Shown in pieces: positions 13,420 through 41,025 of a DNA stretch of 64,000 nucleotides. This DNA is from Tubulanus polymorphus. Taxonomy: Eukaryota; Animalia; Nemertea. The position numbers and the translations under genes are program-made. The stretch spans positions 29,670,150-29,734,149 of the forward strand of contig NC_134026.1 of assembly GCF_964204645.1 (NCBI RefSeq). The letters run 5' to 3'. Numbering within the stretch: position 1 is the stretch's first letter; each line of letters starts with the position of its first letter. The notes below the pieces were generated by a model, which worked only from the letters and a program-made list of their open reading frames with translations, searched no databases and was not told the origin of the DNA.

Positions 13420-16400
13420 TCATTCCTTTTTCAAATGGAAATAAGTCTTTCCTTGTATGACTTGTTTTTCTGGATTGATTTTTTTGAGTATTTGCGCTAC
13501 TGCTGACACTAATTGTTCATTACTCAATCCAGTTTTCTTAGAATTGAATTTCTGTAATATGTCTTTAGTCATCATAGGTTTTCTCATTAGATATCTGCGT
13601 ACATTCTCTTCAGTAACTCCAGCACTACAAATAAATACATACATAATACCATATCATTTACAAGTTTTTTAGAGGAATTAATGATAGAAAGTGTTATACA
13701 GTTAACTCAGCTTTACTCAGTAGCATTAGGACTGTAAATCTTTGTAAGCATTAGGACTATAACTATTATTATCAAATATTCCACAAGATGAAATCAGGAG
13801 AAAAAGGAGGCGTTTCAAGATAAATTCTGGTAAAATCCAGCAACTTGATCGCTTTACCAAGGAAGGAAGGTGGAGTCTTTTGTATAGCCTACTGTAAACT
13901 TTCAGAAACTTACACATTCATAGCTGGTTGTTGTGAGGTTTGTACCGGGCCTGGACTTTCTGTTCGAACTTTCTTATTTTGAGTTTCATCAGTGTCTGCA
14001 CCTGCTTTCCTTTTCACCGCTCCTAAAAATCACCATAAACCTTGAACTTTAAACCGTCTTCAATCGAAGTTTTAATAATCTTGAAAGGGAACATTTACCC
14101 TTCTGATCAGAATCTGGTACAGGTGTAGTAGATCGACTTCCTTGTTTATTGCTTTTCTTTTTTTCACTTTTCTTAAAGAGAACGAAACTTGTTCATACGA
14201 TACGAGTTACTGGTAGCAGTTTCTTTTTCGATTCGATCTGTAGATAAATAAATACCTGCATAAACAGAGCTGAGAATTTACCCTCTTCTTCTAAAGCATC
14301 CGAGTCATCAGAATCTGAAGCCGAACTTTCACTACTATCCGAATCTATAAAATAAACAATCGGCAAAAATATAAAACACAATGTTTGAAAAACAGAATGC
14401 AGTTGATGCGAAGACTATACAAACCTGGCTCCGATTTTTTGGGCTTTTCTTTTTCCGGTTCTTCCTCTTTCTTTTCCTCTTCCTCCTCATCTTCATCACC
14501 AGATTCGTTCAACTTGCGTAAACCGTCCTCGTCGACGACTCCTTTATCTTCTGATTTATCCTCTAATACATCGAGCTCCTCCTCACTATAAAAAAATCAC
14601 ATCGCGTTTATTTGTGAAATGAAATCAAATCGATGAAAATTGCGCCAACCTTGTCAACCTGAGTTTACGTCGAGTGAGAAATGTCTAATTTTTTACATGG
14701 GGAGACTAAGAATTTCGATGGAAAAATCCAGAATTTGCTGATTTTATCCCTGATCTACACGAACCCTGGATACGACACGTAATATAGCGGGATAGCTGGT
14801 TCGTCAAACTGCGGTTAGGCTAAACAAAAATGATACCTTGTTTCTCCGCAGCGGCCGGGTCATTTTTGTAAAATATGATAAAATTCATAAACAGTTCATT
14901 TCTATAGCGGAGGGGTCTGTTATGGTGAAATTGATCACGATTTTTAAAAAAGTAATGTATAGGGTAGATAGGCGGCCGGCCGGGTCAACATTTAAGCTCA
15001 CCAGAGCGGAGAAACAAGGTATCAATTTTTTTGGCCTTAATGTGATATTTTACCTGCTCGAATCTGTTATATAATCAACTTCTTTATCATCATCGTCTCC
15101 ATCATCACTCTCCTCTATCGCTTCATCGGCATCATTCATTTTACCCATCTTCGATTTCTTTTTCGCCTTCTTCTTTTTATCATCTTTTTTATTGGATTTC
15201 TTTTTTTTCTCTGAAGAAATTCATCATTATGAGAAGTCCGATTCATGAAGCTACTTTTCTCAGGAAGATTTCTGAGATTTCTTACCGTCATCCGCATCAT
15301 CATCATCGCTGTCATCTTCATTCTCATCAGCATCTTCATCTTTATCCGACCAATCATCCATCTCAGTTAACTTCTACAATTTGATTCAATGATATTTTCA
15401 TGTTTTGTATTAAATATTTCCATCAAATCCTCATACAGAAGACTGATTGCCTCCGACCTTGTGGGACCAATACATTTTTTTCAGAGACAGTAAGCGATTG
15501 CTAAGCTGTCAGTTTGAGGTGACATCATCACATAAGTTGGAGAAGGAAACTTTCAAACATTTTCTCCAGGGGACGCTATAATCCACGGCAAGTAAAGTAT
15601 ACTCTACAATACAATCTTTGGTTCTTTCTTACGAAATTTTTATCTTTCTTTTTAGACTTTGAAGCTTTATTGCCTTTTTCTCCCTCCTCTCCATCGGCGT
15701 CATCTAGATCTTCGTCATTTTTTATCCTTCGTCGTAACATCACCGAGAACTTATTCAACGTTTGATCTCGCCTGAAAATTATCCGTAATTTCAAAAGTGA
15801 AACTGGCTTAACTTACCATAGCTGGGGTGAACATCATAATGTTACTTATTTCTTGCTGATTTCTGCCATTTCTGCTAATACTTACTTACTGAATTCTTCT
15901 TCTGCTTCTTCGGAATTCAAATATTTATATTTGAGCATTGGATTAAACCTGTACCATTCCTCAATCGGATACGCCTCGAATGCACCATCAGGACATTGCG
16001 TAAATATGAAATACGACGTATTTTCAGCTATAGTTCCTTCTCTTGTTCCTTTATATCTGAATAAAAATCACGCAAAATACGATAAAAAACTGGCTTTCAA
16101 AAATATTCTCAATCCTAATCATTTTAATCAGACCGAGACCTTTTGCCAGATTTTCCACCAGTTTTTAGAATCCACGGCTGATCATCTGGATTATATTTCT
16201 TCACCATGATTCCGTATTTCTTTTTTCGAGCTTCCTCTTTCTGTTCTCTGCCGAATTCGCTTCCAGCTCCGAATTTTGGCATCTGTTCCAAATCATTAGC
16301 TGTCTTATATTCCTTTAAATTATTCTCCCGCTCGATTTTACACTGTAATATATTCACATTCAACAAGATTTGATGAAATTCATAATTCACGATCTGTTTA

Positions 16401-16811
16401 TTGTTGATTAGAGAAATGTTTTTTACTTACAGCTCCACATTTAGTAAAATCTACAGAATTTGCTCCTGAAAATCTCATTATACTAAATTTCTTATTTTTC
16501 TCACTGAAAAAGGATTTACAAACAAGGAAAATGACATGTACTTTTAGTAATGATGTAAGACTTTAAATTTAAATACTTACTTGGGAAGGCGCACTTTAAA
16601 TTCTTGACTTTGAGCCGCTGTAGCACTACCACCTGCAGCAGAACCAGATGTTCCACCTCCAGCCTTAATAAAAAAAGGTGGTAAACAAAATGCAATCGAA
16701 TTTTTTAAATTATTCTGAGCTAGCTTGCCTGTTGCCGTGGTGGTGCTGACGATTACACACACAGTGCAGGGGTTGCTACAGGGTACTTACATGGGCTTGG
16801 CTACTTGACAT
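13420..16811 (-). CDS. GTF2F1: General transcription factor IIF subunit 1 (RAP74), multi-exon
   Basis: 21-nt first coding exon MSSSQAH (16811-16791, gtaagt donor) in phase with ...QEFKVRLPK; MPKFGAGSEFGREQKEEARKKKYG..DDQPWIL; AFEAYPIEEWYRFNP; C-terminal winged helix VTEENVRRYLMRKPM. Confidence 0.93.
14818..15036. mobile_element. PIF/Harbinger-type MITE in a GTF2F1 intron
   Basis: TTA|GGCTAAACAAAAATGATACCTTGTTTCTCCGC ... GCGGAGAAACAAGGTATCAATTTTTTTGGCC|TTA; related copies near 18390-18592 and 53755-53966. Confidence 0.75.
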
Positions 16812-17164
16812 ATTGACGGTTTATTTGATGATAGATTAAGTTTTTGATCAAATCTGAGGTAGTTTTTGACTATCGTGAAGTGAGCCTATTATTCCAGCCT
16901 CGTATTCAGATATAGTGTGTACACACTGAACAGCTGCATGTAGATACTGGTTGATGTGAAATGTATAACCTAACGCTTTGACCTGACGAAACGACGATCA
17001 TTCAATGAAGTCACCGGGGGCAGTAGAGTGCTCAATAATTGTTTTATATAATTCATTATTGTTTAATTTCATAGATTCTCATCGAAAACTAAAACCTGAA
17101 AATCTAGTATATTGTGAAGGAGACCCTGTTCTTTAAGTTGATGTAAAGCAGATGTCTATGCATT

Positions 17165-17956
<792 letters not shown>

Positions 17957-18389
17957 AGTAAAAAAACGAAATATTTCAATACACGATTGCATCATGGCGC
18001 GATTTTTAGGCCACTTGGGGAACACAAAGTTTTGTCCCAAGTAGGCTATCGGTGTATTGATTTCACTTTTCGCAAAGAACGAATGATGTTATTGACACAA
18101 TCTTGGTATTTGGTTTATGGCATTGATTATGCCTACTACTTGGCATTCCTATAGTTGGATGAGGGGTTGATAATTTTATGAGATACCCGCACGATTGATT
18201 GGGGAAAACTTAGGTCATTTCTCAAACATTTGTTATTCATAATTTACAATTTGTCGTGGTACTGGTTTTGGGAATTTTTTTGAGACAGATTGGGAAAAAA
18301 TTCAGGTAATTATGATTGAGAAAATTGACGACTCATGTAGGCCTAAGGCCTACGTAGCGGAATGGCTGTGAACGAAAAATATGGCCTGA

Positions 18390-18592
18390 TAGCACGGCTG
18401 GGTCATATTTGTAAAATATGATAAAATTTGTAAACAGTTCATTTCTATAGCGACCGGGTCTGTAATGGTAAAACTGATCACGATTTTAAAAAAAAGTCAT
18501 GTACAGGGACAGGGTAGATAGGCGGCCGGCCGGGTCTACTTTTAAGCTCGGCAGAGCGGAGAAACAAGGTTCCAAATCAATTTTTTTAGCCT
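18390..18592. mobile_element. Second, 5'-truncated copy of the 14818-15036 MITE
   Basis: Shares GGTCAT.TTTGTAAAATATGATAAAATT...GGGTAGATAGGCGGCCGGCCGGGTC...GAGCGGAGAAACAAGG. Confidence 0.75.
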
Positions 18593-18718
18593 TAGACATG
18601 CTTGCAACTGCTTTGATGATGAGATAAGCTATTTAAACGATAAAGCCCCTTTTAAATTTTTCGGAAGGCATTAGAGAGGATGGCTAGCCACCCTCACCCC
18701 CTAGATCCGCCCCTGCTA

Positions 18719-18801
18719 CAGTAAACCGGCCGCCCTACTGGAACTAGAGACCCGCTAGATTGGCACTATAGTTGCAGTGAAAATCCGAAAGAGGTTTACT
18801 G
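18719..18801. mobile_element. Short Tc1/mariner-type MITE
   Basis: TA|CAGTAAACC ... GGTTTACTG|TA, same termini as 2415-2595. Confidence 0.55.
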
Positions 18802-19643
18802 TAGTTTTCTATCACCTAATGTATCAATAAACTGGAAAATATAATCCCAGGGACTATCAAGTTTAAATGTGCATGAGTAGACCGAGTTCTAACTAAAATC
18901 TATTAAAACAAGTGAGTACAGGTGATTGTACGGACAATATATTGAGTTTGAAAGTGTCTGAGTCCGAGTCAATACTATAATTGATTAGTGTGATTCGAGT
19001 TAAAGAGCCGAGAGCTGAGTCAACTGTAGATCACAGAAAAATAACAAAAACAATTTGTAGTGAACAACTAAACCACGAATAGGTTTTAGTTGTTGTGATT
19101 AATAGTTCTATATGTATTTACATGTAAACAAAGGTCAACCAATTATCAAACACCAATCACAAGCCTTTTAAATCAATTAAGCAACACAAAATCAATATAA
19201 TTCATCAATGTAACAAATAAAAGACAAGATAAACTGGTAACGTTAGTACTTTCCACCTCGTTTTACTATTCTACACCAAGTTGAGAATACAGCTCGTCTA
19301 CGAATCGATCATGTCATTTCATAGAAATAAATATGGTATTTACAAAAACAAACGAGTTAAAATGCATTGTAATTAACCAACACCGACAGAAGTCAACACG
19401 AAGAAATCAAGGTCAGTCATCATGTCATGTCGATATTCAAACGCAGTACGGAACTGACTGCTGCATTTCAGTTCGACCTCAAAACAACATCAACAATTCT
19501 TTAGAAGCGATCAAAGATATTCTAACTTGTTTTATTTAAATCAAAATAAATAAATAAATAAAAAATCTCAAATTGAACACATATATTCATACACACAGTC
19601 AGTTGCACACACAAGAATTATCAGTCTTAACACGCAGAAGAGT

Positions 19644-19895
19644 TGTCCAAGTTCCAGCAACGCATTAAGAGTTCTCCAAGTTCGAGCAACGCATTAGAGT
19701 TCACCAAGTTCCAGCAACGCATTAGAGTTCTGGAAGTTCCAGCAACGCATCACAGTTCTCCAAGTTCTAGTAACGCATTAGAGTTCTCCCAAGTTTCAGC
19801 AACGCATCTCGAAGTTCCAGCAACGCGTTAGAGTTCTCTTAGTTCCAGGAATGCATTAGAGTTCTCTAAATTTCCAGAAACGCATTAGAGTTCTC
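19644..19895. repeat. Minisatellite, ~28-bp unit
   Basis: AAGTTCCAGCAACGCATTAGAGTTCTCC about 9 times, degenerate. Confidence 0.9.
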
Positions 19896-20024
19896 AAATG
19901 ATTAACAGGTGCCATCTTATTATTAAATTAGATGTATCACACATTTCTTCGCCTAGAAGACAAATTAAACAAACATTAAAGGATATTTTAAACAATCAAT
20001 AAAACATTTCAAGTCGTTTTTCTA

Positions 20025-21300
20025 TTACAATATACCTGATTTATAGTCTGTTCAGATTCATGAATCATCCATTCTTTCATCCTTTCAACTTTGGAAGAAT
20101 ATTCATGTAAATCCCTGCAGGTATTTTTCCATCTTGTAGTAACATAACATCTTTCTATATTTCCTACTTACAACATGAAAATTCAAAATATGAATAATTT
20201 TTGAATAATGTCAGATATGAAAATTGATTCATGTAATTTCAAAATTATACCTGATTTAAAGTCAGTTCAGACTAATGACTCGGCCTTCCTTTGCAACTGT
20301 TCACTTTGTGACACTACTTTGTTGTTGACTAAGGCAGGTAACTCAGTATTACTGATCTCAGCGGTGACATTCATCTAACTGATGCCTGGTGATTGTCTCA
20401 TCTATAGTGACTTAGTTCTGTGGACCTCTCAATATTTGCTACAAGAAAACACAAAATATGAATACCGGCAATTTTCAATTTTTGAGATTTTTATATAATT
20501 TCAATATTATACCTGATTTATTGTCAGTTCAGACAAATGACTCGACGTTCCGCTGGAATTGTTAACGTGTGACTCTTAATTGTTACTTCGTTCCTGACTT
20601 AGAGGCAGATACAGCACAGCACCACTGATCTCATCTCACTTGTGATCCTCTTATCTCACTGGAGACGCCCTGATCTTACCACTTGGATAGACATAGTTCT
20701 GTACTGATCTCACTGGTGATATTCTCATCTCTGGTGACACTCAGTTCAGTGGTAAACCTCTCAATATTAGCTAAAAGAAAACAAAATATGAATAAATTTA
20801 GATTTTGACACTTCTATAGTCAGTTCAATGACTGATCCTTCCTCAGGTATTGCATGTCTAATGATTTGCTACAAGAAAACATGTAACAGACCATCATAAC
20901 GTTTGAGACTTTCCCAACAACAAGAAATCCATGTCAATCTAACTTAATATACCTCATTTATAGTCAGTTCAGACTAATGACTCGACATTCCTCTGGAACT
21001 ATTAACCTTCCTTGTGACTCTGTAACTTTGTTGCTGACTTTGACGGAGATGAATCAGTGCTACTGATCTCAGTGGTTCATCTAACTGATTCCTGGTAATT
21101 GTCTCATCTCTGGTGAGACTCAGTTCTGTGGTAAACCTCTCAATATTTGCTACAAGATAACACAAAATATGAATAATTTTCAATTTTGAGACTTTGAAAA
21201 TTGATTTACACTATTTCAATATCATACCTGATTTAAAGTCAGTTCAGACTTATGACTCGACATTCCTCTGGAACTGTGAACTTTCCCCGTGACTCTTGTT
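20025..21300 (-). repeat. Tandemly duplicated exon+intron-like modules (~5-6 copies)
   Basis: Recurrent ATACCTGATTTA.AGTCAGTTCAGAC.AATGACTCG (minus-strand CAG|GTAT donor) and TTTGCTACAAGAAAAC..AAAATATGAATA (minus-strand TTGTAG acceptor). Confidence 0.65.
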
Positions 21301-21302
21301 CC

Positions 21303-21606
21303 TGACTTTGAGGGAGATAACTCTGTACAACTGATCTGGCTGATCTGACGCTCTAATCTCTCTATAATCACTGCGACTTAATCTTCACTATATTATTTAA
21401 GACATTGATGATTTCACATTTCATTTTTTCCATTTTACAATTAATCATTAACCTTGACTTTGAGGGAGATAACTCAGTACAACTGATCTGGCTGATCTGA
21501 CGCTCTAATCTCTCTATAATCACTGCGACTTAATATTCACTATATTATTTAAGACATTGATAATTTCACATTTCATTTTTTCCATTTTACAATTAATCAT
21601 CAACCT
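21303..21606. repeat. Two-copy direct tandem duplication, ~152 bp
   Basis: TGACTTTGAGGGAGATAACTC.GTACAACTGATCTGGCTG starts at 21303 and 21455. Confidence 0.9.
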
Positions 21607-22419
21607 TTTATATTTTTGTCTACAAAATGGGTATCTAAGATTGTTTGAAGAATTAATGCTTTTCTATGACAAACACTGAAACATTATCACAAATTATATC
21701 AACACACAAACAAAAGATAGATAGCACTGTACATGCTAATCAAGTTTTTAAGGACCCGCGGGTGTGCATGTGTATCCCCTGAAATATACATAAACACAAT
21801 TTGTGTGTCTTTATGTATTTAGTGCCATTTCATGCAAGTGCGTTAGTGCATGGATGCATCAGTGCAAAGTGAGACGTCAGGTGCTTAGTGAGGAGACGTC
21901 AATTGTTTTCACCGGTGTTTATGATGATCGATCTTCACTTAATAGGCTATAATGGACAAGAGTTGGCTCCAATGTTTTGAAGTTTTATTAACTCAGGTTT
22001 AGAGTTTATCAGCATTCATAAAACGCTCTGACCCAGTTTAGCTGATTCAAGGGCTATCTAACACCTAGGCTATCAAGGGCTATCAAGCAATAGCATCTTT
22101 GAATGTAACAATCTTAAAACGCAACTCCGTAATGTGATAATAAGTTGCTGATACAATATATAAACAGTACCAACACCAGTGAAATTTCAATGATACAACC
22201 ACCACAAAGCTATCAACTTAAACGGTAAGTCGCGACAAGGGAGATCAGAAAACATAATCAATCCCAATTCACCGACATATATTACAATTTATACACTGAA
22301 CCAACACCAGCGACATTTCAATGATACAATCACCACAAAGCTTTCGATGGATAGCTCTCTTTTGAATATCTATACATTTAAATCATAACGTCATAATAAG
22401 AACGATCAGGAAACAAAAC

Positions 22420-23990
22420 TCACCAAAACTCAATATCACCCCAAAACAAGAGTGTATCAATTAACATCCAGCAGCAAGCAGCAGTATTAAGGAGGTCATC
22501 AGTGATGTAACACACTAACAATTCAGTTGTTTGTCACGTTTCTACATGACAGTTGAAGAAGGAAGGAGGAGACTCCTTAACTCAATATCACCCCAAAACA
22601 GAGTGTTTTAATTAACATGCACCAGCAAGCAGCAGTATTGAAGGAGGCCATCAGTGATGTATCACACTGACAATTCAGTTTGTTTGTCACATTTCTACAT
22701 GACAGTTGAAGAAGGAAGGAGGAGACTCCTGAACTCAATATCACCCCTAAAAAGTGGAATGATTAACATGGAGAAGGAACTTGCCAGCTTTTTAGATGAC
22801 AATAGTGTGTAATTTGATAATGTAATTATGTAACAATTCATGATGTAATAATGTTTAATGTAATAATTTTTATTGTGATAATGTTTAATGTAATAATTCA
22901 AGAAGTTCAGGGAAGGAGGTAAGAATTACCACCCAGCAACAACGAGCAGTATTAAAGGAGGCCATCAATGTTGTAACACACTGATAATCAGTTTGTTTGT
23001 CACGATTCTGCATGACAGTTGCAGAAGGAAGGAGGAGACTCCTGAACTCAATATCACCCCAAAACAGAGTGTATCAATTAACACCCAGCAGCAAGCAGCA
23101 GTAGTAAAGGAGGTCATTAGTGATGGAACACACTGACAATTCAGTTTGTTTGTCACGATTCTACATGACAGTTGCAGAAGGAAGGAGGAGACTCCTGAAC
23201 TCAATATCACCCCAAAACAGAGTGTATCAATTAACACCCAGCAGCAAGCAGCAGTAGTAAAGGAGGTCATTAGTGATGGAACACACTGACAATTCAGTTT
23301 GTTTGTCACGATTCTACATGACAGTCGCAGAAGGAAGGAGAAGACTCCTTAACTCAATATCACCCCAAAACAGAGTGTATTAATTAACATGCACCAGCAA
23401 GCAGCAGTATTAAAGGAGGCCATCAGTGTTGTAACACACTGACAATGCAGTTTGTTTGTCACGTTTCTACATGACAGTTGAAGAAGGAAGGAGAAGACTC
23501 CTGAACTCGATCGATATCACCCCAAAACAGAGTGTATCAATTAATAACGTTTAATGTTATAATTCAAGAAGTTAAGGGAAGGAGGTAAGAATTTACACCC
23601 AGCAACAAGCAGCAGTATTAAAGGAGGTCATCAGTGTTGTAACACACTGACAATTCAGTTTGTTTGTCACGTTTCTACGTAACAGTTGAAGAAGGAAGGA
23701 GAAGACTCCTGAACTCGATCGATATCACCCCAAAACAATCAATTTACACCCAGCAACAAGCAGCAGTATTAAAGGAGGTCATCAGTGTTGTAACACACTG
23801 ACAATTCAGTTTGTTTGTCACGTTTCTACGTAACAGTTGAAGAAGGAAGGAGAAGACTCCTGAACTCAATATCACCCCAAAACAGAGTGTATTAATTACC
23901 ACCCAGCAGCAAGCAGCAGTATTAAAGGAGGTCATCAGTGTTGTAACACACTGACAATTCAGTTCGTTTGCCACGTTTCTACATGACAGT
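22420..23990. repeat. 153-bp satellite, array 1
   Basis: Unit ...GCAGCAGTATTAAAGGAGGTCATCAGTGTTGTAACACACTGACAATTCAGTTTG...; period measured 23101->23254. Confidence 0.95.
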
Positions 23991-24069
23991 TATCAACCTT
24001 CAGGTGCAAAGAACAAATGTGAAGCTATCAAGCGATAGCATCTTTGAATATAACACTTTTAAAATGTGT

Positions 24070-25205
24070 AATATGATAATAATTTGCTGATACCATATAT
24101 ACAAAGTACCAACACCAGCAACATTTCAATGATACAACCACCACAAAGCTATCAATGGATAGCTGTTTTGAATATTTATACATTTAAAACGTAAAGTCGC
24201 AATAAGGATGATCAGGAAACATAATCAGTTCCAATTCACCGACATATATTACAATATATACAAAGTACCAACACCAGCGACATTTCAATGATACAACCAC
24301 CACAAAGCTATCGATGGATAGCTGTTTTGAATATTTATACATTTAAAACGTAAGGTCGCAATAAGGACGATCAGGAAACATAATCAATCCCAATTCACCG
24401 ACATATATTACAATATATATACAGAACCAACACCAGCGACATTTCAAACATTCAACCACCACAAAGCTATCGATGGATAGCTGTTTTTAATATTTATACA
24501 TTTAAAACGTTAAGTCGCAATAATGACGATCAGGAAATATAATCAGTCCCATTTCACCGACATATATTACAATATATACACAGAACCAACACCAGCGAAA
24601 TTTCAAAGATTCAACCACCACAAAGCTATCGATGGATAGCTGTTTTTAATATTTATACATTTAAAACATTAAGTCACAATAAGGACGATCAGGAAACATA
24701 ATCAATCCCAATTCACCGAAATATATTACAATATATACACAGAACCAACACCAGCGACATTTCAAAGATTCAACCACCACAAAGCTATCGATGGATAGCT
24801 GTTTTGAATATTCATATATCTAAAACGCAAATCTAAATTATATCGAAATTCATATATCTAAAACGCAAAGTCGCAATAAGGACGATCAGGAAACATAATC
24901 AATCCCAATTCACCGGCATATATTACAATATATACACAGAACCAACATCAGCGACATTTCAATGATTCAACCACCACAAAGCTATCGATGGATAGCTGTA
25001 TTGAATATTTATATATTTAAAACGTAAAGTCGCAATAAGGACGATCAAGAAACATAATCAATCCCATTTCACCAACATTATATATACAAAGTACCAACAC
25101 CAGCGACTATTCAAAGATTCAACCACCACAAAGCTATCGATGGATAGCTGTTTTGAATATTCATATATCTTTAACGTAAGGTCGTAATGAGGACGATCAG
25201 GAAGC
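24070..25205. repeat. 159-bp satellite (also ~2 copies at 22140-22415)
   Basis: CACCACAAAGCTATCGATGGATAGCTG recurs at 24301, 24460, 24619; internal hairpin AGCTATC-GATG-GATAGCT. Confidence 0.95.
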
Positions 25206-25214
25206 AAAACTAGC

Positions 25215-26958
25215 CAAAGCTCAATATCACCCCAAAACAGAGTGTATCAATTTACACCCAGCAGCAACGAGCAGTATTTAAGGAGGCCATCAGTGTTGTA
25301 ACACACTGACAATTCAGTTTGTTTGTCACGTTTCTACATGACAGCTGAAGAAGGAAGGAGAAGACTCCTGCACTCAATATCACCCCAAAACAGAGTGTAT
25401 CAATTAACACCAAGCAACAAGCAGCAGTATTAAAGGAGGTCATCAGTGTTGTAACACACTGACAATTCAGTTTGTTTGTCACGTTTCTACATGACAGTTG
25501 AAGAAGGAAGGAGGAGACTCCTGAACTCAATATCACCCCAAAACAGAGTGTATCAATTAACACCCAGCAGCAAGCAGCAGTATTAAAGGAGGCCATCAGT
25601 GTTGTAACACACTGACAATGCAGTTCGTTTGTCACGTTTCTACGTAACAGTTGAAGAAGGAAGGAGGAGACTCCTGAACTCAATATCACCCCAAAACAGA
25701 GCCAGCAGCAAGCAGCAATATTTAAGGAGGATGATTCATGATATTATAATGTTTAATGTAATAATTTTTATTGTAATATTGCTAATGTAATAATTCAAGA
25801 AGTTCAGGGATGGAGGTAAGAATTAACACGCAGCAGCAACAAGCAGTATTAAAGGAGGCCATCAGTGTTGTGACACACTTACAATTCAGTTTGTTTGTCA
25901 CGTTTCTACATGATAGTTGAAGCAGGAAGGAGGAGACTCCTGAACTCAATATCACCCAAAACAGAGTGTATCAATTAACACCCAGCAGCAAGCAGCAGTA
26001 TTAAAGGAGGTCATCAGTGTTGTAACACACTGACAATTCAGTTTGTTTGTCACGTTTCTACATGACAGTTGAAGAAGGAAGGAGAAGACTCCTGAACTCA
26101 ATATCACCCCAAAACAGAGTGTATCAATTAACACGCAGCAGCAACAAGCAGTATTAAAGGAGGCCATCAGTGTTGTGACACATTGGCAATTCAGTTTGTT
26201 TGTCACGTTTCTACATGACAGTTGAAGCAGGAAGGAGGAGACTCCTGAACTCAATATGACCCCAAAACAGAGCCAGCAGCAAGCAGCAGTATTAAAGGAG
26301 GTCATCAGTGTTGTAACACACTGACAATTCAGTTTGTTTGTCACGTTTCCACATGACAGTTGAAGAAGGGAGGAGAAGACTCCTGCGATCAATATCACCC
26401 CAAAACAGAGCCAGCAGCAAGCAGCAATATTTAAGGAGGATGATTCATGATATTATAATGTTTAATGTAATAATTTTTATTGTAATATTGCTTATGTAAT
26501 AATTCAAGAAGTTCAGGGAAGGAGGTAAGAATTAACACGCAGCAGCAAGCAGCAGTATTAAAGGAGCCCATCAGTGTTGTAACGCACTGACAATTCAGTT
26601 TGTTAGTCAGGTTTCTACATGACAGTTGAAGAAGGAAGGAGGAGACTCCTGCGATCAATATCACCCCAAAACAGAGCCAGCAGCAAGCAGCAGTATTTTG
26701 GGAGGATGATTCATGATATTATAATGTTTAATGTAATAATTTTTATTGTAATATTGCTTATGTAATAATTCAAGAAGTTCATGGAAGGTGGTAAGAATTA
26801 ACACCCAGCAGCAAGCAGCAGTATTAAAGGAGGCCATCAGTGTTGTGACAAACTGATAATTCAGTTTGTTAGTCACGTTTCTACATGACGGTGAAGAAGG
26901 AAAGAGGAGACTCCTGTACTCAATATCACCCCAAAACAGAGTGTATTAATTAACACCC
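25215..26958. repeat. 153-bp satellite, array 2
   Basis: Same unit as 22420-23990, with recurring AT-rich insert variants. Confidence 0.95.
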
Positions 26959-27279
26959 TGGGAATGAGAATGGGAAGGAGAACACTTTCAATGGAATTCT
27001 ATTATTAATATTTCATAGCTATCATTCATTAATGTTAATATCAAAGATCGAACCAGCCAGTATCATAGTTATTGAACACTGACATTTTTCATATCACCCC
27101 TAAAAGCAGGAAGGGAGGTAGAATGTGCCACCAAATCAGTATGTGTATCAATGTTTCAGCATGTGTATCAATATTTCAATACATGTATTAATGTTTCGGT
27201 TCATGTACCAATATTGCAGTACATGCATTAATGTTTCAAGACAGCAGAACCTCACAGCAATTTACATACCATACAACAC

Positions 27280-28122
27280 CAATTAACGTCACTGATAATG
27301 GAATTGGAAATTGATTACAGCAGCAATCAACAGTATTTGAACAAGGCAGCAATCAGTGTTTTGAGTCACTGACAATTAACGTCAATGATAATGCGAATTG
27401 AAAATTCATTTCAGCAGTAATCAGCAGTATTTGAAAAAGGCAGCAATCAGTGTTTTGAGTCACTGACAATTAAAGTCAAAGATATAGCAACCCAGAAATT
27501 CATTACAGCAGCTATCACCAGTATTTGGAGGAGGCAGCAATCAGTGTTTTGAGTCACTGACAATTAACGTCAATGATAATACGAATTGGAAATTCATAAC
27601 AGCAGCAATCAACAGTATTTGGAAGAGGCAGCGATCAGTGTTCTGAATCTCTGACAATTAACGTCACTGATAATGTGAATTGCAAAATTGATTACAGCAG
27701 CAATCAATAGTATTTGGCGGAGGCAGCAATCAGTGTTTTGAGTCACTGACAATTGATGTCAATGATAATGCGAATTGGAAATTCATAACAGCAGTAATCA
27801 GCAGTATTTGGAAGAGGCAGCAATCAGTGTTTTGAGTCTCTGACAATTAACGTCAATGATAATACGAATTGGAAATTCATTTCAGCAGCAATCACCAGTA
27901 TTTGGAAGAGGCAGCAATCAGTGTTTTGAGTCACTGACAATTAATGTCAATGATAATACGAATTGGAAATTCATTTCAGCAGCAATCAGCAGTATTTGGA
28001 AGAGGCAGCAATCAGTGTTTTGAGTCTCTGACAATTAACGTCAATGATAATACGAATTGGAAATTCATTTCAGCAGCAATCAGCAGTATTTTGAAGAGAC
28101 AGCAATCAGTGTTTTGAGTCTC
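27280..28122. repeat. 94-bp satellite
   Basis: GGCAGCAATCAGTGTTTTGAGTCACTGACAATTAACGTC; period 27351->27445->27539. Confidence 0.95.
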
Positions 28123-28887
28123 TTGTACTCGAAATTTCAAGAACAGGAGATAGGAGATCCCGAATCTCAACATCATCCCTACATGAGGAGCAGGAGGAGG
28201 AGGAGGAGGAGAAAATTCATAATTCTTTTAGTATACCTTATTATTTCATACCTATTATTCATTTGATATATGTATTAAAAGTGTGAGGTCACATCAACTA
28301 GCCAGTATCATAGCTATTGAACACTGACATTTATCATATCCCTAAAAGCAGAGGAGAGGAGATAAAACGTACCACCAAATCAGTATGTGTATCACTGTTT
28401 CAGTACATGTATCACTGTATCAGTACATGTATCAATGTTTCAGTACATGTATCAATGTTTCAAGATGGCTGAACACCACAGAAGCTATCAGCATCATTCA
28501 GTGAAGTTGATAAGTTGATGTAGAAGCAACTACCATACAGCAATAACCAAGGAGAAACATTATTTCAAACAAATTATAATTATTTTACTAAGCCTATTAT
28601 TATTCTGTTCCTATTATCATTTCATACCTATTATTATTTAACATATTATTCTATATCTATCATTATTTCATATCTATCATTATCTTATACCTACTTCAAA
28701 TATCAAAGAGCGAAGAAGGTCACATCACCCCTAGGAAGGGGAGGTAGAACAAGCCACCATATCAGTACACATATCAATGTTTCAGTACATGTATCAATGT
28801 TTCAGTACAAGTATCAATGTTTCAAGATAGCTGAACTTAACAGCAATTTACATAGCGCACAACACCATGTATTACAACACTATGTAT

Positions 28888-29922
28888 AGTCTTAGACTTA
28901 GACCTATCCCATAAGCAGTCTCAGATTTGTTCCTGTCTTATAAGCCGTCTTAGAAGTCTTAGACTTAGACTTATGCCATAAGCAGTCTTAGACTTGTACC
29001 TATCCTATAAACAGTCTTATAAGCAGTCTTAGAAGTCTTACACTAAGACCTATCCCGCAAGCAGTCTTAGAAGTCTTACACTTAGACCTACCCAGCAAGC
29101 AGTCTTAGTAGTCTTACACTTAGACCTATCCCGCAAGCAGTCTTACACTTAGACCTATCCCGCAAGCAGTGTTAGTAGTCTTACACTAAGACCTATCCCG
29201 TAAGCAGTCTTACACTAAGACCTATCCCGTAAGCAGTCTTAGAAGTCTTACACTTAGACCTATCCCGCAAGCAGTCTTACACTTAGACCTATCCCGTAAG
29301 CAGTCTTAGTAGTCTTACACTAAGACCTATCCCGCAAGCAGTCTTAGAAGTCTTACACTTAGACCTATCCCGTAAGCAGTCTTAGTAGTCTTACACTAAG
29401 ACCTATCCCGTAAGCAGTCTTGGTAGTCTTACACTTAGACCTATCCCGCAAGCAGTCTTAGTATTCTTACACTTAGACCTATCCCGCAAGCAGTCTTAGA
29501 AGTCTTACACTTAGACCTACCCAGCAAGCAGTCTTAGAAGTCTTACACTAAGAACTATCCCACAAGCAGTCTTAGAAGTCTTACACTAAGACCTATCCCA
29601 CAAGCAGTCTTACACTTAGACCTATCCTGCAAGCAGTCTTACACTTAGACCCATCCCGCAAGCAGTCTTAGTAGTCTTACACTGAGACCTATCCCGTAAG
29701 CAGTCTTAGTAGTCTTACACTTAGACCTATTCCGCAAGCAGTCTTAGTATTCTTACACTTAGACCTATCCCGCAAGCAGTCTTAGTAGTCTTACATTTAG
29801 ACCTATCCCTTAAACAGTCTTAGAGGTCTTACACTTAGACCTATCCTACAAGCAGTCCAGTCTTAGAAGTCTTACACTAGACATATCCCATGAGCAGTCT
29901 TACACTTAGACCTATCCTATAA
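28888..29922. repeat. 38/29-bp minisatellite
   Basis: CTTACACTTAGACCTATCCCGCAAGCAGT(CTTAGAAGT). Confidence 0.95.
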
Positions 29923-30112
29923 GAAAGACTCATAGGCTTGAATATTTTGATAGTTGCCCAAGGGAAGCAGTATTCTTATCGATGTCTCTTATGACAAATC
30001 CACTAGAGGTATCTTATACAGTGTCAAATGAAAATCTTCTTAACTGCTGTTCAGTATAAATTCTGTATCACCATCATCATCATCATCATCACAATCATCA
30101 TCAAACCAAACC

Positions 30113-30590
<478 letters not shown>

Positions 30591-31254
30591 CAGTTTAACG
30601 TCGTACCTCAGGACAATTCTAAAACACTGGTAAAGGTATAAACCCAAGATTTGATAAATTCTTCTTATGGTTGTATTAAATAAAGCAATTTATGAAAATG
30701 TGGACTCAACTGTATTAAAAATCTGGGCTAAATTAGTTAGGAATATTAAAAGGTTTTAAGATAATATTTAAAATCCATGTTTAAAAGATACCTAAAAAGT
30801 ATATTTACATGTAGAAATTATAATCAATAAAAAATATAAAATATACAAATAAAAACCAACAACTATTTACAATTTAACAATATGTACAATAGTGTTAGTA
30901 CGGATAAAATGTGTCGATCAATTTGATGATATATCTAAATCTTTAGTTTTTATCATTATTTACCTATAATAATAAAAGCCCAAGTGATTTTAGAATAACT
31001 GTGCCAGGCCAATCACTCACTCGATGATCATCAATTACTGGTACTACACAATCACAGAAAGAGTGGTTTTTACCACGTGGTATATTAGGCCAGGTGCACC
31101 TCCCAATGATAATGCCAACTATTATGTTTGGCTTCTTTTGAGTTGTTATGTACATTGATATTTATTGAATGAGAAAGCTGCAGGTAGTAGAGAAGAGCGA
31201 TAGAAAAAAATTGCATGCAGAAAACAAGTGCATACGAGACACAGGAGATTACTG

Positions 31255-32425
31255 AAATTCAATATGGCTACCAGTCAGCCATCTTGATTGTGAAAATGAA
31301 AAGAAGATAAATCCAATTCAGCCACCAGTCAGCCATCTTGATAATGAAAATAAAATAATGAAATCTGATATGGTCACCAGTTAGCTTTACAACCAATATG
31401 GTCACAGGTCAGCCATTTTAGTGTGATTTCAACCTTTGTGGTACCTTACACCTTTCCCTTGAAAATGATAAATTAACAGTATGTGTAATCATGGCTGCCA
31501 GTCAGCCATCTTGATTCAGACTTCATAGCCAAAATGAATATCAATCATTACCATAGCACTCTAGCCCTAACTTAATCAAACTAAACCCCTAAAGTTTTGG
31601 GAATTAAATATGGCTGCCAGTCAGCCTTCTTGAGCATGCATGTAACTAATGCTTCACTTAGCACCCTACATCTTTTCCATGGTAATAATGATTTCGAGTA
31701 CTAGACTAAATAATAGTTTTAATTATCAAATCTGGCTGCCAGTTAGCCATCTTAAGTACCGCTATTAATGTGGATAGATGGAGAGGCCACAGCCATGACA
31801 ATAGATTGTGCGACTAAAGACTAAAGAGAAATAAGTGAAACATGAAAGATTATGGGGGAAATATGAAAATGAAACAAGGTTAGAACTAATTTCATTCAAT
31901 AAATATAGCTGTTTATATGAAATGTGTTTGAGAACCTCAAAAGCGCTGACACTTGTGGTCTAGGGACACCATGCCCTTTGAATGAAATGCTTGACAATCT
32001 GACAATGCGCCCGGTGAAAATATACAGAAACCAAAGACCTTTAAACTCACCACAATCATAGAACGAATACCAATATAAATGGAACAATTTCATACAATTC
32101 AATATTAGGCTAACCCCAATTCCACGTATGGAGATGTGTCCAATGAGAATGCTACGAATTAGCAAATTATCAAGACTAGATGTTTGATTTGAAAATTTCC
32201 CTTGTAAAATTCAAAAATGTGTACAAAGTACTGAAGTACTGATTTTAGCGAACAATAATCACCGCCAGTTGGCCATATTGATTCTGTTTGGGCCTTCTTT
32301 TGGTGTCTAGGGTAGATACATGTATAAACCAAATATCATGACGATCCATTGAAGCATCTTCCCAAAAAACTAGATTCTGTCTACGAACAGATGACGATGG
32401 ACAAAAAGTGAATGCAATAGTCTAC
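31255..32425 (+). mobile_element. Helentron/HINE-like non-autonomous element remnants with repeated ATGGCTGCCAGTCAGCCATCTTG motif
   Basis: About 7-8 copies of the semi-palindromic motif; 3' part ACCAAATATCATGACGATCC...GAACAGATGACGATGGACAAAAAGTGAATGCAATAG resembles invertebrate HINE-type ends (recognised from memory). Confidence 0.4.
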
Positions 32426-32989
32426 ATGTGCTCAAAGGTTCAAGAAGATCAAAAGAAATATTTGAGAAAAAAGAAACTGAACCCCATAGAAGTTAGGATA
32501 GAAATAACAAACCTAAAAAACTAGAAAAATCTTTTTTTTCATTTCCCTATTTTCCTAAATAATTAAAAATTGATTTAAAAATCTATTCTTTCCTTCATTT
32601 ACAATCTATCTTATATACAAATCATATCCTAGAAAAAATCATCCAAGATGAATCCCACACATAAAAATATAAAACTGATATCTAAAATAAATCTTTTCTA
32701 GGAAAAATGTTCCATTTAAACAATTATAATGACATCAATTATGCTCAAATGCTCTATTGAATAATCAACTGACTTGTAAATACTTCTGACATCGAACACG
32801 AAACAAAGGTAAAAATAGATCTAACAATTAATTTTTTCTATTTAATCAGAATGTCTTCCAAAATGAAATCCTAATCTGAAAAAAATTCTAAGAATCAATA
32901 GAGATGGCCCTGACACAAGTTGATTGATAATCATCTGTTCCATTACTTCGAATGTTACTGACATCATCGAATCCATATCACACTAAAAT

Positions 32990-35220
32990 ATTTCAATGAC
33001 CCAGGAGTAATTCTATTAATGACAAAAATTACCCTACCCTCAGTTCATCAATCATTAAAAAAAAACCTAACCGTATTCTATCATGATTAAAAAGACATAT
33101 TATTTTACTGATGAACTGAGAGTAATTCTATCAATGACAAATTTACCCTCAGTTCATAAAACAATAACAATAACCTCACGCAGTATTCTATCATGATCCA
33201 AACTGATCAATTTTACTTTAAATATATTTTAGTGTTAATCCTACTAACTATATAATAAATGTATTTTACTGATGATCCCGAGAGTAATTCTATCAATGAC
33301 AAAATTACTCTCAGTTCAAAAAACAATAAAAATAACCTCACAACAGTATTCCATCATGATTCAAACTGATCCATTTTACTTTAAATATATCTTAGTGTTA
33401 ATCCTACTAACTATATAATTAATGTATTTTACTGATGATCCTGAGAGTAATTCTATCAATGACAAAATTACCCTCAGTTCATAAAACAATAGAAATAACC
33501 TAACAGTATTCTATCATGATTAAAACTGATCAATTTTGTTTTGAATATATTTTAGTGTTAATCCTACTAACTTTATAATTTATGAATTTTACTTATGACC
33601 TGAGAGTAATTCTATCAATGACAAATTTACCCTCAGTTCATAGAATAAAAATAACCTACCAATATTCTATCATGATTAAAACTGACCAATTTTACTATAA
33701 ATATATTTTAGTGTTAATCCTACTAACTTTATAATTTATGAATTTTACTTATGACCTGAGAGTAATTCTATCAATGACAAATTTACCCTCAGTTCATAGA
33801 ATAAAAATAACCTACCAATATTCTATCATGATTAAAACTGACCAATTTTACTATAAATATATTTTAGTGTTAATCCTACTAACTTTATAATTTATGAATT
33901 TTACTTATGACCTGAGAGTAATTCTATCAATGACAAATTTACCCTCAGTTCATAGAATAATAAAAATAACCTACCAATATTATATCATGATTAAAACTGA
34001 CCAATTTTACTATGAATATATTTTACTGATAATCCTTCTAAATTTATAATTTATGAATTTTACTTATGACCTGAGAGTAATTCTATCAATGACAAATTTA
34101 CCCTCAGTTCATAGAATAATAAAAATAACCTACCAATATTCTATCATGATTAAAACTGATCAATTTTACTATAAATATATTTTACTGATAATCCTTCTAA
34201 ATTAATAATTTATGAATTTTACTTATGACCTGAGAGTAATTCTATCAATGACAAATTTACCCTCAGTTCATAGAATAATAAAAATAACCTACCAATATTC
34301 TATCATGATTAAAACTGATCAATTTTACTATAAATATATTTTACTGATAATCCTTCTAAATTTATAATTTATGAATTTATTTATGACCTGAGAGTAATTC
34401 TATCAATGACAAATTTACCCTCAGTTCATTAAACAATGATAAAACCTAACAGAATTCTATCATGATCGGAAAAAGCTTATTAACCTCCATTATAAACATA
34501 ATTTCATCTTCATTTTACAAAAACAAATAATAAAATTGTATTTGTTTCAATAAAACTATTTTTTTGAAAATTCAAAAAGAGAAATCTGATGAAGCGTACC
34601 TATAAATGTATATTACTGATGATCCCGAGAGTGATTCTATCAATGACTAATTTACCATCAGTTCATAAAACAATAAAAATAATCCAACAGTATTCTATCA
34701 TGATTAAAACTGATCAATTTTACCTTAAATATATCTTAGTGTTAATCCTAGTCACTTTATAATTAATGTATTTTACTGAAGACCTGAGAGTAATTCTATC
34801 AATTCTATCAATGACAAATTTACACTCAGTTCATCAGGCAATGAAAAAACCTACTAGTATTATATCATCAAATTAAATACAAAAAAATATATTGAACTTT
34901 ATCATTCATGTAGTTTACTTATGAAATGAGAGTAATTCTGTCAATGACAAATTTACCCTCAGTTCAAAAAAGAAAAAAGTCTATTACAAACTGTTTCAAT
35001 AAAACTAATTTTTGAAAATTCAGAAAAAGAAATCTGATGAAGCGTTCCTATAAATGTATATTACTGATGATCCTGAGAGTAATTCTATCAATGACAAATT
35101 TACCCTCAGTTCATAAAACAATAAAAAATAACCTAACAATATTCTATCATGATTAAAAATATCTGATGAGTTAACATTAATGTATTTTATTGATGATCCC
35201 AAGAGTAATTGTATCAATGA
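32990..35220. repeat. AT-rich ~156-163-bp satellite
   Basis: GAGAGTAATTCTATCAATGACAAATTTACCCTCAGTTCAT at 33602, 33758, 33914, 34073 and further copies. Confidence 0.95.
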
Positions 35221-35289
35221 TGAAAACTTGTTTATCCTGAATATAGAAACAAATGACTTCATACCTTTAATAACTAAACTTAAAAATAA

Positions 35290-35645
35290 TCATATAGCTT
35301 GACCTAAACAAACTTAAATAACAAGACTTAAATACACTTAAATAACTAGACTAAAATAAATAGACTAAAATACACTTAAATAACTTGGCCTAAATAGACT
35401 TAATTAACCTGGCCTAAATAGACTTAAATAACAAGACCTAAATATACTTAAATAACTAGACTAAAATAACTAGACCTAAATAGACTTAAATAACTAGACC
35501 TAAATATACTTAAATAACTAGGCATTGATAGACTTAAGTAACTTGGCCTAAATAGACTTAAATAACTAGATCTAAATATACTTAGATAACTAGAAATATA
35601 CTTAAATAAATAGCCATGAATAGACTTGAATAACTATATCTAAAC
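35290..35645. repeat. ~24-bp minisatellite
   Basis: AAATAACTAGACCTAAATAGACTT, degenerate. Confidence 0.9.
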
Positions 35646-36353
35646 ACAATAAACATATAAACTGAAATCAAAAAGTGAAGACAATAAACTCACTGACAAA
35701 CTGAAAATATCTTTAAAAAACTAGGAAAATCAAGAAAAGAAGATAAAATAAAGTATGAGAAAAAGTTCTCAATCACATTTCATATGAACTATGAGTACAA
35801 GCTCTTCGTGCATACATTATAATACATGGGCCTCATACATAACCACTATTTATATCTGCGTTGTGGACCACGTAATTGTGTCAAAGAGTGTTCAGTGATA
35901 AAACCTGGACCTTCAGTTATCCTTTCCAAAATATCTTGGGTTCCAATATATGATATAGTCAAATACATAGAGAAATCTAGTCAAGATAAATAATTCATCA
36001 AATTGATCTGTAGGCGTGTTTTAAAAAACGAATATTATGTAGTTCTTGAAAATATAAAATGGTTCTAAATTATATACAAATAAAGAAGTTTAAAATGAGT
36101 ACAAATAAAACGATTTAAAATACAATACAGATTAGAGAAAATTAGTTCAAAAACTCAAAAGTTGGAGTAAATTAGAATCTTAAGCAATGAATGCCTTGAA
36201 ACATAGAATTTGGCTGAATCTTTAGGAAATAAATGAAACACTGTAACGGCAATAATCATAACACTAACTGTTCAATAACTGGAATATCGCTGAAATGTTT
36301 GTTGGCTATTGATGATGATGATGATGATGATGCTGGTTTTTGTTTGGATATGT

Positions 36354-38960: not shown

Positions 38961-40684
38961 TACAAGGGATCAATTCCCCAATTTCCCAAGTATATATCCT
39001 CTATACACTTGGCAATTTTGAACATCCAAAATTTGAATAATATCTAATTTTGATTAGAATTAATCATTTCAATTCATCGTTAATGATGTTTCAATACTTG
39101 CTGATCCTAGGTCAAATCCCAGCAATTTCATTTCAAAATATCGATGATTAATCTCAATTTTCAATCACATTATCTAAAAATATCTCAATCTTATCTTTTA
39201 TTCATTAGCTTAATTAGCGAAATACTTTTTCTCTCTCCTCTGCTCAATAAACAAGTCAAATTCTGAGCCTGATGATAATTAGGCTCATTATTAGCCAATA
39301 CAACTTCACCGACTTGACAACAACAAATTCTCTTATCAGAGATCTTTTTTATTCCGCGTTTTAACTGAATCTTTACAGAATTCTATAAGGTTCCATTTTA
39401 TCGCAATTATCAATTATGAAATTCATGTATTGATCATCGATCAAGTGAATCATTCCATTTCACACCCTAAATAGGACCATTGGTGCAGCAGGATCAATTG
39501 AGTAAAGTTTACCGTTGAGCATTTAAATGGATTTATGGGATTTGCAATAAGGTGTGAAGATGTCATCTTAGTGCACACAACACCACTGTGTAGTAAAGCG
39601 TGTTCAACTATGATGATTTGCATGGTATTAGGTTATTCCCATGACTTACGAGCAATTTAGTTGAGATCAATTTAGTTGAGATAATCGCTCGTAGCCATGA
39701 CTCACTGGCACATGGCAGAACAATCCATACAATTTTTACAAGGCCAACTTGGATGCTGAAGTACTATCCCAGTGACGTCATTATCGAGGAACAAGGTCAA
39801 GCATCGATAAGTAGACATGGGGAAAATTCATTTGCTCATTTCTCTCAGTATTTCCAATCCACTAAGAGCTGATGGACAAAACCTTCCATATTAATTCCAA
39901 CGCCTATTTCTCTTCTAATGACAAAATATCAGCTGTGTATATCCGATGGTTATAATTCTACCACCCAGAGCTAACAGAAAGTTACTCTCAGAACCGTTCT
40001 ATAAAGATGAACGTAGTTGATCCAATAAGTGTAATGAAATTGATTACCGTTGTTTTTGCTGTGATTTCCATTCTTGTGCAACATTTTATCCAATATCACG
40101 TAATTATGCGTATGAATACATATTCCTATTCCTAAACGAGTGGATATTTGAAATCCATCCGTTCACATTTAAAGGATTTCCTTCCGCTGTTTGGCAATAG
40201 ATATTAACATTTCAAGTTTTCGCGATAAATCAAATAAATCTGTAACTAGAAAAACAAGTATTTTAATAACAATGAACAATGATTTTAAACTTGACATATG
40301 AACGTCATAGTATCAGGGGTGGGATAACATTGAACACATTGTATTTCAATGTAATTCTATAAGAAATCGCATTATGTGTAAAACATAGCTGTTCCTTCTC
40401 CGTGTTTTGAAAAGAATCACATTATGTGAATCAAAGCAATCCTTATATTTGAAAAAACCATAATTTAGAGACGTTCTTTTAAATTTTTTTTCAAACTCCA
40501 CAGAAAAATTATGGCAGAGATGGCACTTTCCAGCGTGTCCTAGAGGACTTTTCGAAAGGCCATAACGATTACAGCAATTGAATAGGTGATTAATTACCAC
40601 GAGTTCTGCCACTGAAAAAATGGCAAGGATGGATACAGATGGTAAAGATGGTAAAGATGGATACTGAGGCTGAATGCTGCTGCA

Positions 40685-41025
40685 AAATGGAACGCAAGAA
40701 TGGAACTGCATGAGTCAGTTCGAATGCAGGAATGGAACTGCAGGAGTCATTTCGAATGCAGGAATGGAACTGCATGAGCGAGTTCGAATGCAGGAATGAA
40801 ACTGCATTGAGTCAGTTCTAATGCAGGAATGGAACTGCATGAGTCAGTTTGAGGATGCAGGAGTGGAACTGCATGAGTCATTTTGAATGCAGGAGTGGAA
40901 CTGCATGAGTCAGTTCGAATGCAGGAATGGAGCTGCATGAGTCAGTTCGAATACAAGAATGGAACTGCACGAGTCAGTTCAAATGCAGGAATGGAACTGC
41001 ATGAGTCAATTTGAATGAAGGAATG
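40685..41025. repeat. 32-bp minisatellite
   Basis: GGAACTGCATGAGTCAGTTCGAATGCAGGAAT about 10 times; period 40702->40734. Confidence 0.95.

What the first reader, a model, noticed from the sequence alone, without database searches (positions are those of the whole stretch)
16791..16969. Element inserted 58 bp upstream of the start codon of the core transcription gene GTF2F1
Seen: ATG at 16811, TSD at 16860-16868. Removing the element gives, on the minus strand, ...CTTAACTTGCC-CAAAAACTA-CCTCAG|ATTTG..., which looks like a branch point plus 3' splice site. Inference: either a 5'-UTR intron grew by 33.5 kb with the true promoter beyond 50424 (GC-richer patch 50530-50790), or GTF2F1 is now driven from the TIR or element interior.
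Basis: partly seen in the sequence, partly recalled or inferred. Interest (0 to 1): 0.7.

Follow-up and report, generated by a model that had tools for sequence, protein, structure and literature searches.

The report
Giant transposon parked on TFIIF promoter
In a ribbon worm, a 33.5-kb piece of jumping DNA sits 57 bases in front of an intact core transcription gene, and it likely landed on the gene's start region and cut off the old promoter rather than swelling an intron, so the gene is likely now read from the transposon's edge, as Mutator transposons do in maize.

Summary
A 33,546-bp element (16869-50414), with 101-bp terminal inverted repeats (96/101 identical) and a perfect 9-bp target duplication, ends 57 bp before the ATG of an intact 13-exon GTF2F1 (523 aa, identical to a RefSeq Tubulanus polymorphus protein). 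The left junction also stands in a public DNA-like run on a haplotype about 1% different. A 33.5-kb 5'-UTR intron is therefore unlikely. Best reading (0.55): a non-autonomous Mutator-like element landed at or beside the ancestral start site, and GTF2F1 on this allele now starts in the left end or the residual 57 bp. No transcript 5' end was seen, so the start site is inferred. A silent or weak polymorphic allele remains possible (0.2). The mechanism is known from maize Mu. The size, the animal host and the likely essential target are the unusual parts.

The parts
13420..16811 (-). GTF2F1 (TFIIF alpha, RAP74) coding region, 13 exons, 523 aa, intact
   Evidence: Exact spliced mapping of P0001 = XP_074641856.1; Pfam PF05793 on three exon ORFs; run X5 contig joins 14425-14585 to 15054-15210, i.e. 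across intron 8
16791..16811 (-). First coding exon piece (7 codons) with the ATG at 16811
16812..16859 (-). Residual host sequence between TSD and ATG; A-rich, no upstream ATG; likely 5' UTR and possibly the start site
   Evidence: function inferred
16854..16855 (-).
16860..16868 (+). Left target-site duplication, 9 bp
16869..16969 (.). Left TIR, 101 bp; all 5 differences from the right TIR lie in its outer 20 bp (16871, 16872, 16873, 16886, 16888)
16869..50414 (.). 33,546-bp TIR element; no transposase domain found; about 13.1 kb of tandem arrays, nested small repeats, orphan ORFs
17167..17649 (+). 161-aa open frame near the left end, repeated in the genome; unassigned (its Cys/His tail recalls LINE ORF2 ends, from memory only)
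   Evidence: only a sub-threshold zf-nanos hit; no longer homolog; high depth
41515..42288 (-). 258-codon Pro/Gln-rich open frame inside the element, same strand as GTF2F1; orphan
   Evidence: 0 hits at E<=0.001
50314..50414 (.). Right TIR, 101 bp
50415..50423 (+). Right target-site duplication, 9 bp
50424..50800 (-). Sequence that lay directly upstream of GTF2F1 before the insertion; likely the displaced ancestral promoter; holds three ATGs that would overlap the main ATG out of frame
   Evidence: promoter role inferred and weakly supported
52313..54870 (-). neuralized, the next gene upstream on the same strand; its stop was 1,946 bp from the GTF2F1 ATG before the insertion and is 35,502 bp away now

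Best explanation
A 33.5-kb element with long inverted ends and a 9-bp target duplication, likely a non-autonomous Mutator-like transposon, sits 57 bp before the GTF2F1 start codon; it likely landed at or beside the ancestral transcription start and cut off the upstream promoter, and on this allele the intact gene is likely transcribed from a start in the element's left end or in the residual 57 bp, not through a 33.5-kb intron. Shown: the element, its ends, the TSD, the intact ORF, spliced GTF2F1 sequence in a public run of the same species label, and the left junction on a second haplotype. Inferred: superfamily (no transposase found), position of the ancestral start (from short 5' spacing of neighbouring genes and three out-of-frame upstream ATGs at -77, -103 and -110 in the empty allele, which would confine an unspliced 5' UTR to under 77 nt and so put the start within about 30 nt of the target site or downstream of it), and the present start site. 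The element probably grew by satellite expansion and nested insertions, and its altered left tip suggests it no longer moves.
For: Ends and TSD. TSD of 8-11 bp and long TIRs are the listed MULE features (PMC6446971 passages); non-autonomous Aedes MULEs share TIRs and carry heterogeneous interiors (PMC5225508 passages). Mu inserts within 50 bp of start sites of highly expressed genes and is 64-90-fold enriched in 5' UTRs (PMC7337890 passages). 20 of 33 maize Mu alleles make transcripts that start inside Mu and read out into the gene, often at near wild-type level, with no read-through of the element (10.1101/2023.06.05.543741 abstract, sections 3 and 7). Intron route is weak. Gene intact and only one protein labelled T. 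polymorphus among the 120 of 168 hits listed, so a second copy is not evident. Run X1 holds one contig from 15010 to 16918 that runs across the TSD 50 bp into the TIR while differing from the window at 22 letters and 7 gaps in 1904: the junction is present on a haplotype about 1% apart. It ends at 16888+30, the last 31-mer that holds a left-TIR-specific letter, which suggests these letters are private to this copy and the insertion is not brand new (inference; word length 31 assumed). Another X1 contig carries the TIR with 7 other letters and runs on about 1,850 letters into unlike sequence, so the TIR is a dispersed family (record 6).
Against: No transcript 5' end, CAGE or long read was seen; the start site is not shown. 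The left end does not look like the window's promoters: 2.1 CpG per 100 nt over the first 377 bp against 4.4-5.4, and 58% of non-coding windows are as CpG-rich; no shared promoter word was found. The initiator-like match at 16855 is expected by chance. The upstream-ATG argument is weak: other genes have their nearest upstream ATG at 16-185 nt and a 74-nt ATG-free run has probability about 0.25. X1 may be the sample behind the window, and contigs show presence only, so an empty allele is not excluded; 359 loose ends were not displayed. The spliced X5 contigs cannot be assigned to a filled allele. No transposase was found, so MULE membership is untested. The outward-promoter precedent read here is from maize, not animals.
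Confidence: 0.55

Rival explanations
1. The insertion is a segregating allele that silences or weakens GTF2F1 on its chromosome; the species' transcripts come mostly from empty alleles with the old promoter at 50424-50800.
For: 33.5 kb now separates the ATG from its former upstream sequence; the left end is not promoter-like by CpG or shared words. Old genic insertions downstream of start sites are under-represented for several maize DNA-transposon families and P insertions are rarely fixed (PMC7337890 passage). No population data were seen.
Against: The junction is on a haplotype about 1% different from the window, in one contig that crosses the TSD without breaking, at depth 36 against 41 for the neighbouring single-copy contig. 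The left tip has gathered 5 private-looking changes, which takes time, while the ORF stayed intact.
Confidence: 0.2
2. The element lies in a 5'-UTR intron: transcription still starts beyond 50424 and the 33.5 kb is spliced out to the AG at 16855-16854.
For: An AG and a YTRAY exist in the empty allele; with the element in place the acceptor score rises to 2.44, above 5 of 45 true acceptors. The patch at 50530-50790 has promoter-like CpG density. An intron would explain tolerance without a new promoter.
Against: Acceptor below all 45 true sites in the empty allele; YTRAY not discriminating and moved 33.5 kb away from the AG by the insertion; no donor of normal strength at a workable distance in 50424-50850; introns here are 72-518 nt, median 88; 89 acceptor-like decoys and 26 AATAAA inside the element on this strand.
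Confidence: 0.12
3. GTF2F1 is driven from deeper in the element (for example the TATA-like site at 17050-17044 with a 116-161-nt mini-intron to 16853), or receives a trans-spliced leader at 16853.
For: TATA-like site at 17050, CpG-dense 16970-17050; donor-like sites at 17014, 16982 and 16969 score 4.8, 4.9 and 3.5 and give normal intron sizes.
Against: Two of the three donors bring in an out-of-frame ATG that overlaps the main one; acceptor is weak. Three literature searches gave no report of spliced-leader trans-splicing in nemerteans; the one paper that held all terms names Nemertea only in a reference title.
Confidence: 0.1
4. The arrangement is an assembly error joining a repeat-rich block to the gene.
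For: The interior is about 39% tandem arrays. The right junction was not checked with reads.
Against: Matching 9-bp duplication at both ends with TIRs; the left junction is in an independently assembled short contig.
Confidence: 0.03

Closest known systems
Maize Mutator (Mu) insertions with an outward-reading promoter, e.g. hcf106-mum1 and the UniformMu alleles of 10.1101/2023.06.05.543741
   Same: TIR element at the 5' end of a gene; gene body intact; proposed start inside the element end; no read-through of the element.
   Different: There the start inside Mu was measured; here it is inferred. Mu TIRs are about 220 bp (section 3) and the alleles are new lab insertions; this one is 33.5 kb, in a nemertean, and looks aged.
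Non-autonomous animal MULEs such as the Aedes aegypti Muta1 derivatives (PMC5225508) and plant Pack-MULEs (PMC6431247 passages)
   Same: 8-9-bp TSD, TIRs over 100 bp, heterogeneous interior without transposase, genic insertion bias.
   Different: Muta1 is 3.2 kb with subterminal tandem repeats inside the TIR; Pack-MULEs in the cited survey did not exceed 7 kb. No tandem repeat was called within these TIRs and no captured host-gene fragment was identified.
Promoter replacement at Drosophila ras85D (PMC8790561, abstract and outline only)
   Same: A conserved animal gene whose promoter region was partly replaced by sequence of mobile-element origin.
   Different: Based on comparison across many species; here there is one allele and no comparative or start-site data.
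Drosophila P element (PMC7337890 passages)
   Same: Animal DNA transposon that targets start sites of highly expressed genes.
   Different: P makes 8-bp duplications and has short TIRs (recalled); this element has 9 bp and 101 bp.

Membership tests
Mutator-like elements (MULE) | TSD of 8-11 bp directly outside the ends | tested here: met
   9-bp perfect duplication; feature as stated in PMC6446971
Mutator-like elements (MULE) | Long TIRs (commonly over 100 bp; 14-500 bp reported) | tested here: met
   101 bp, 96 identical; range from PMC6446971, PMC5225508
Mutator-like elements (MULE) | MuDRA-type DDE transposase in the element or in a partner with the same TIRs | tested here: inconclusive
   No transposase Pfam hit in the element: 147 of 165 window ORFs of 65 aa or more and 124 of 126 ORFs of 42-64 aa in the non-array interior. 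Short or broken exons and the two big array blocks at 42-64 aa were not covered. A partner elsewhere could not be sought: no genome is held.
Mutator-like elements (MULE) | Dispersed family sharing the TIR, with different flanks | tested here: met
   X1 record 6 and loose ends at 16874 in X1 and X3; TSD lengths of other copies not seen
Mutator-like elements (MULE) | Family-wide preference for 5' ends of genes | not testable with these tools
   Only one insertion site has known gene context; no genome held
Pack-MULE | Captured host gene fragments between the TIRs | tested here: inconclusive
   Interior ORFs have no Pfam hit above cut-off; 258-aa ORF has 0 hits; no genome for a DNA comparison
5'-UTR spliceosomal intron | Acceptor of normal strength for this genome | tested here: not met
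   -0.48 bits, below 45 of 45 true acceptors; 2.44 with the element, above 5 of 45
5'-UTR spliceosomal intron | Donor at a workable distance upstream | tested here: not met
   Best in 50424-50850 is 4.2 at 31 nt, next 3.7; 42 of 45 true donors score 4.7 or more; first normal-strength site is at 50999 (4.8)
5'-UTR spliceosomal intron | Junction reads from beyond 50424 to 16853 | not tested
   The one answered read-laying covered 12500-17600 and showed only the best-supported rows; no base-level view of the RNA 5' end was obtained
TIR-derived outward-reading promoter | Capped 5' ends inside the TIR reading into the gene | not testable with these tools
   Only assembled contigs were offered, which cannot show a start

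The most novel reading that the evidence does not exclude
The insertion is fixed in the species and its left TIR has become the only promoter of a core Pol II factor. All five TIR differences crowd into the outer 20 bp of the gene-side TIR (P about 2e-4 as five substitutions, 7e-3 as three events), and the one at 16886 removes an ATG that in the right-TIR version would open a 28-codon frame overlapping the GTF2F1 start out of frame. This would be a 33.5-kb animal transposon domesticated and tuned as a housekeeping promoter.
Probability: 0.15. Interest if true: 0.7.

Novelty: new member of a known kind. Interest (0 to 1): 0.4.

Why it matters
If the filled allele is the common or only one, a general transcription factor that is conserved across animals has swapped its upstream promoter for transposon sequence in one step, in a genome where neighbouring housekeeping promoters are only 200-400 bp long. 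That would extend the maize 'Mu supplies its own promoter' coexistence strategy to an animal and a 33.5-kb element, and give a natural test of how little sequence a housekeeping start site needs. If the allele is a rare silent one, it is an ordinary promoter-seeking insertion, notable only for size.

Tried and rejected
No whole genome is held, so copy number, other target sites and an autonomous partner could not be sought. Run search: no RNA holder listed on record; 5 of 6 runs hold part of 14000-16860, kind not recorded. X5 has depth 0.94 in bin 16775-16945 and none in 16946-17600; back-calculation fits either about 30 nt at depth 5.4 or 63 nt at depth 2.6, so it cannot place the start, and lack of cover proves nothing. 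TIR depth in X1 is roughly 140 times the flanks; I treat this only as a sign of a repeat, not a copy number. A closer read view of the 5' end, and any view of the right junction and 50424-52300, were not obtained; the start site and the empty allele stay open. Rfam: 0 matches at gathering score in the window; 4 chance-level matches (E 1-3.6) in 50200-52400, so no known RNA gene explains the GC-richer patch; it folds at z = -2.5. Shared 6- and 7-mers of four window promoters did not separate the right flank, the left end or background; the motif list is recalled consensus, not tested. Homolog searches for the two interior ORFs were empty; the protein atlas gave no answer. Earlier-findings look-ups by place and sequence were empty; the word look-up gave 8 prokaryotic notes with no bearing. 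Literature: 12 of 13 papers listed for 'Tubulanus polymorphus' + 'genome' show no title on its transposons or this gene (listing only). bioRxiv supplements were not seen; the Mu preprint's tables could refine where in the TIR transcripts start.

Full report
What is there. The window is animal DNA with short introns. A GTF2F1 exon matches a RefSeq protein labelled Tubulanus polymorphus at 100% (XP_074641856.1). That protein maps exactly onto 13 minus-strand exons from the ATG at 16811 to the stop at 13420, so gene, start codon and intact frame are confirmed. A 33,546-bp element occupies 16869-50414, bounded by 101-bp inverted repeats that agree at 96 positions and by a perfect 9-bp duplication at 16860-16868 and 50415-50423. 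57 bases separate it from the ATG. Beyond the right end lie about 1.9 kb without a recognised gene and then neuralized on the same strand.

The element. About 13.1 kb of it is tandem arrays. It also holds a copy of a small repeat found in GTF2F1 intron 8 and in neuralized, a nested repeat with a weak Myb/SANT-like hit (E 0.046) and orphan frames. No transposase domain was found in 147 of 165 ORFs of 65 aa or more (the 18 left out lie in microsatellites, arrays or antisense to GTF2F1) or in 124 of 126 shorter ORFs of the non-array interior. The 258-codon frame at 41515-42288 has no relative among 1.84 billion representatives. TSD and TIR lengths fit the MULE description (PMC6446971 and PMC5225508, passages), but without a transposase this is 'works like a non-autonomous MULE', not proven membership.

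Is it real and how old. In run X1, one contig spans 15010-16918: it crosses the TSD and 50 bp of TIR and differs from the window at 22 letters and 7 gaps. So the junction is present on a haplotype about 1% apart; X1 may be the window's own source, and contigs cannot show that an empty allele is absent. The contig stops at 16888+30, which is where 31-letter words stop containing a left-TIR-specific base; I infer that the five tip changes are private to this copy. Another X1 contig carries a diverged TIR with a different long flank, so the TIR belongs to a dispersed family. Run X5 has contigs that join GTF2F1 exons across intron 8 exactly as mapped: the gene is spliced in material with the same species label, though the allele is unknown.

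Testing the splice idea. I annotated 45 introns in four genes; all four joined frames are open to their stops. With the element it scores 2.44, above 5 of 45. The branch-like word precedes 38% of true acceptors and 30% of random ones. In 50424-50850 the best donor scores 4.2 but is 31 nt away, too close for an intron here (minimum 72); the rest are 3.7 or lower, while 42 of 45 true donors reach 4.7. The element offers 89 decoy acceptors and 26 AATAAA on the transcribed strand. The 33.5-kb intron is not excluded, since weak 5'-UTR sites exist, but nothing in the sequence asks for it.

Where the promoter was and is. The right flank has the CpG density of the four promoter regions in the window (4.2-5.4 per 100 nt), the left end of the element half of that; yet 17% of non-coding windows match the flank and no shared motif emerged, so this is a weak pointer. 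In the empty allele three ATGs at -77, -103 and -110 would overlap the main ATG out of frame, which suggests an unspliced 5' UTR shorter than 77 nt and a start close to the target site at -57 to -49. That is where Mu and P elements land: within 50 bp of start sites of highly expressed genes (PMC7337890 passages). In maize, 20 of 33 Mu alleles give transcripts that start inside Mu and read outward, often at normal level, and read-through was ruled out (10.1101/2023.06.05.543741 abstract and sections 3 and 7). I therefore favour a start at the junction: in the left TIR or in the residual 57 bp with TIR sequence upstream. This step is inferred; the data at hand cannot place a 5' end.

A detail worth testing. 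All five TIR differences fall in the outer 20 bp (P 2e-4 if five substitutions, 7e-3 if three events). One removes an ATG that, in the right-TIR version, would open a 28-codon frame across the GTF2F1 start. This was noticed after the fact, and built-in asymmetry of the family's ends or ordinary end decay would explain it too.

Rivals. Silent or weak polymorphic allele 0.2; giant intron 0.12; deeper start with a mini-intron, or trans-splicing, 0.1 (three searches found no report of leader trans-splicing in nemerteans); assembly error 0.03.

Verdict. A real, large, promoter-proximal TIR insertion at a core gene. The mechanism class is known from maize Mu, and promoter turnover by mobile elements at a conserved animal gene is described for Drosophila ras85D (PMC8790561, abstract only). 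The size is well above the Pack-MULE range quoted in PMC6431247 (passages). New member of a known kind; interest 0.4, rising to about 0.7 if fixation and a TIR start are shown.

Noticed in passing
window 50436-50475: A 40-bp imperfect palindrome with 8-bp perfect arms lies 12 bp from the right TSD, i.e. next to the target site before insertion; 50424-50800 folds at z = -2.5 with several hairpins and no Rfam match.
   Followed up: partly
window 14815-15039, 18395-18594, 53761-53955: Three copies of a roughly 200-bp very high-copy repeat: in GTF2F1 intron 8, inside the giant element and in a neuralized intron.
   Followed up: partly
window 22427-26941, 27280-28120, 28888-29902, 33102-34466, 36355-38968: Several unrelated satellite arrays inside the element (periods about 153/159, 94, 38, 159 and 37 bp; the last has 66 copies). 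Whether other family members carry them is unknown.
   Followed up: no
window 41515-42288, 46535-46808, 48438-48733 (minus strand): Exon-like frames of a possible decayed multi-exon gene inside the element, on the same strand as GTF2F1; the longest has no homolog.
   Followed up: partly
window 42900-43625: Nested repeat with related ends and a weak Myb/SANT-like fragment at 43331-43474 (E 0.046); recalls Harbinger-type derivatives (from memory); ends not resolved.
   Followed up: partly
window 846-1031, 10570-10886, 54871-55130: Three head-to-head gene pairs share 190-320-bp intergenic stretches (PheRS alpha with an acyl-CoA dehydrogenase; an unassigned gene with an F-box gene; neuralized with a short-chain dehydrogenase), showing how compact promoters are here.
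   Followed up: partly
window 51580-51747 and 61121-61400: Short inverted-repeat elements downstream of neuralized and in an intron of the multi-RRM (RBM19-like) gene.
   Followed up: no
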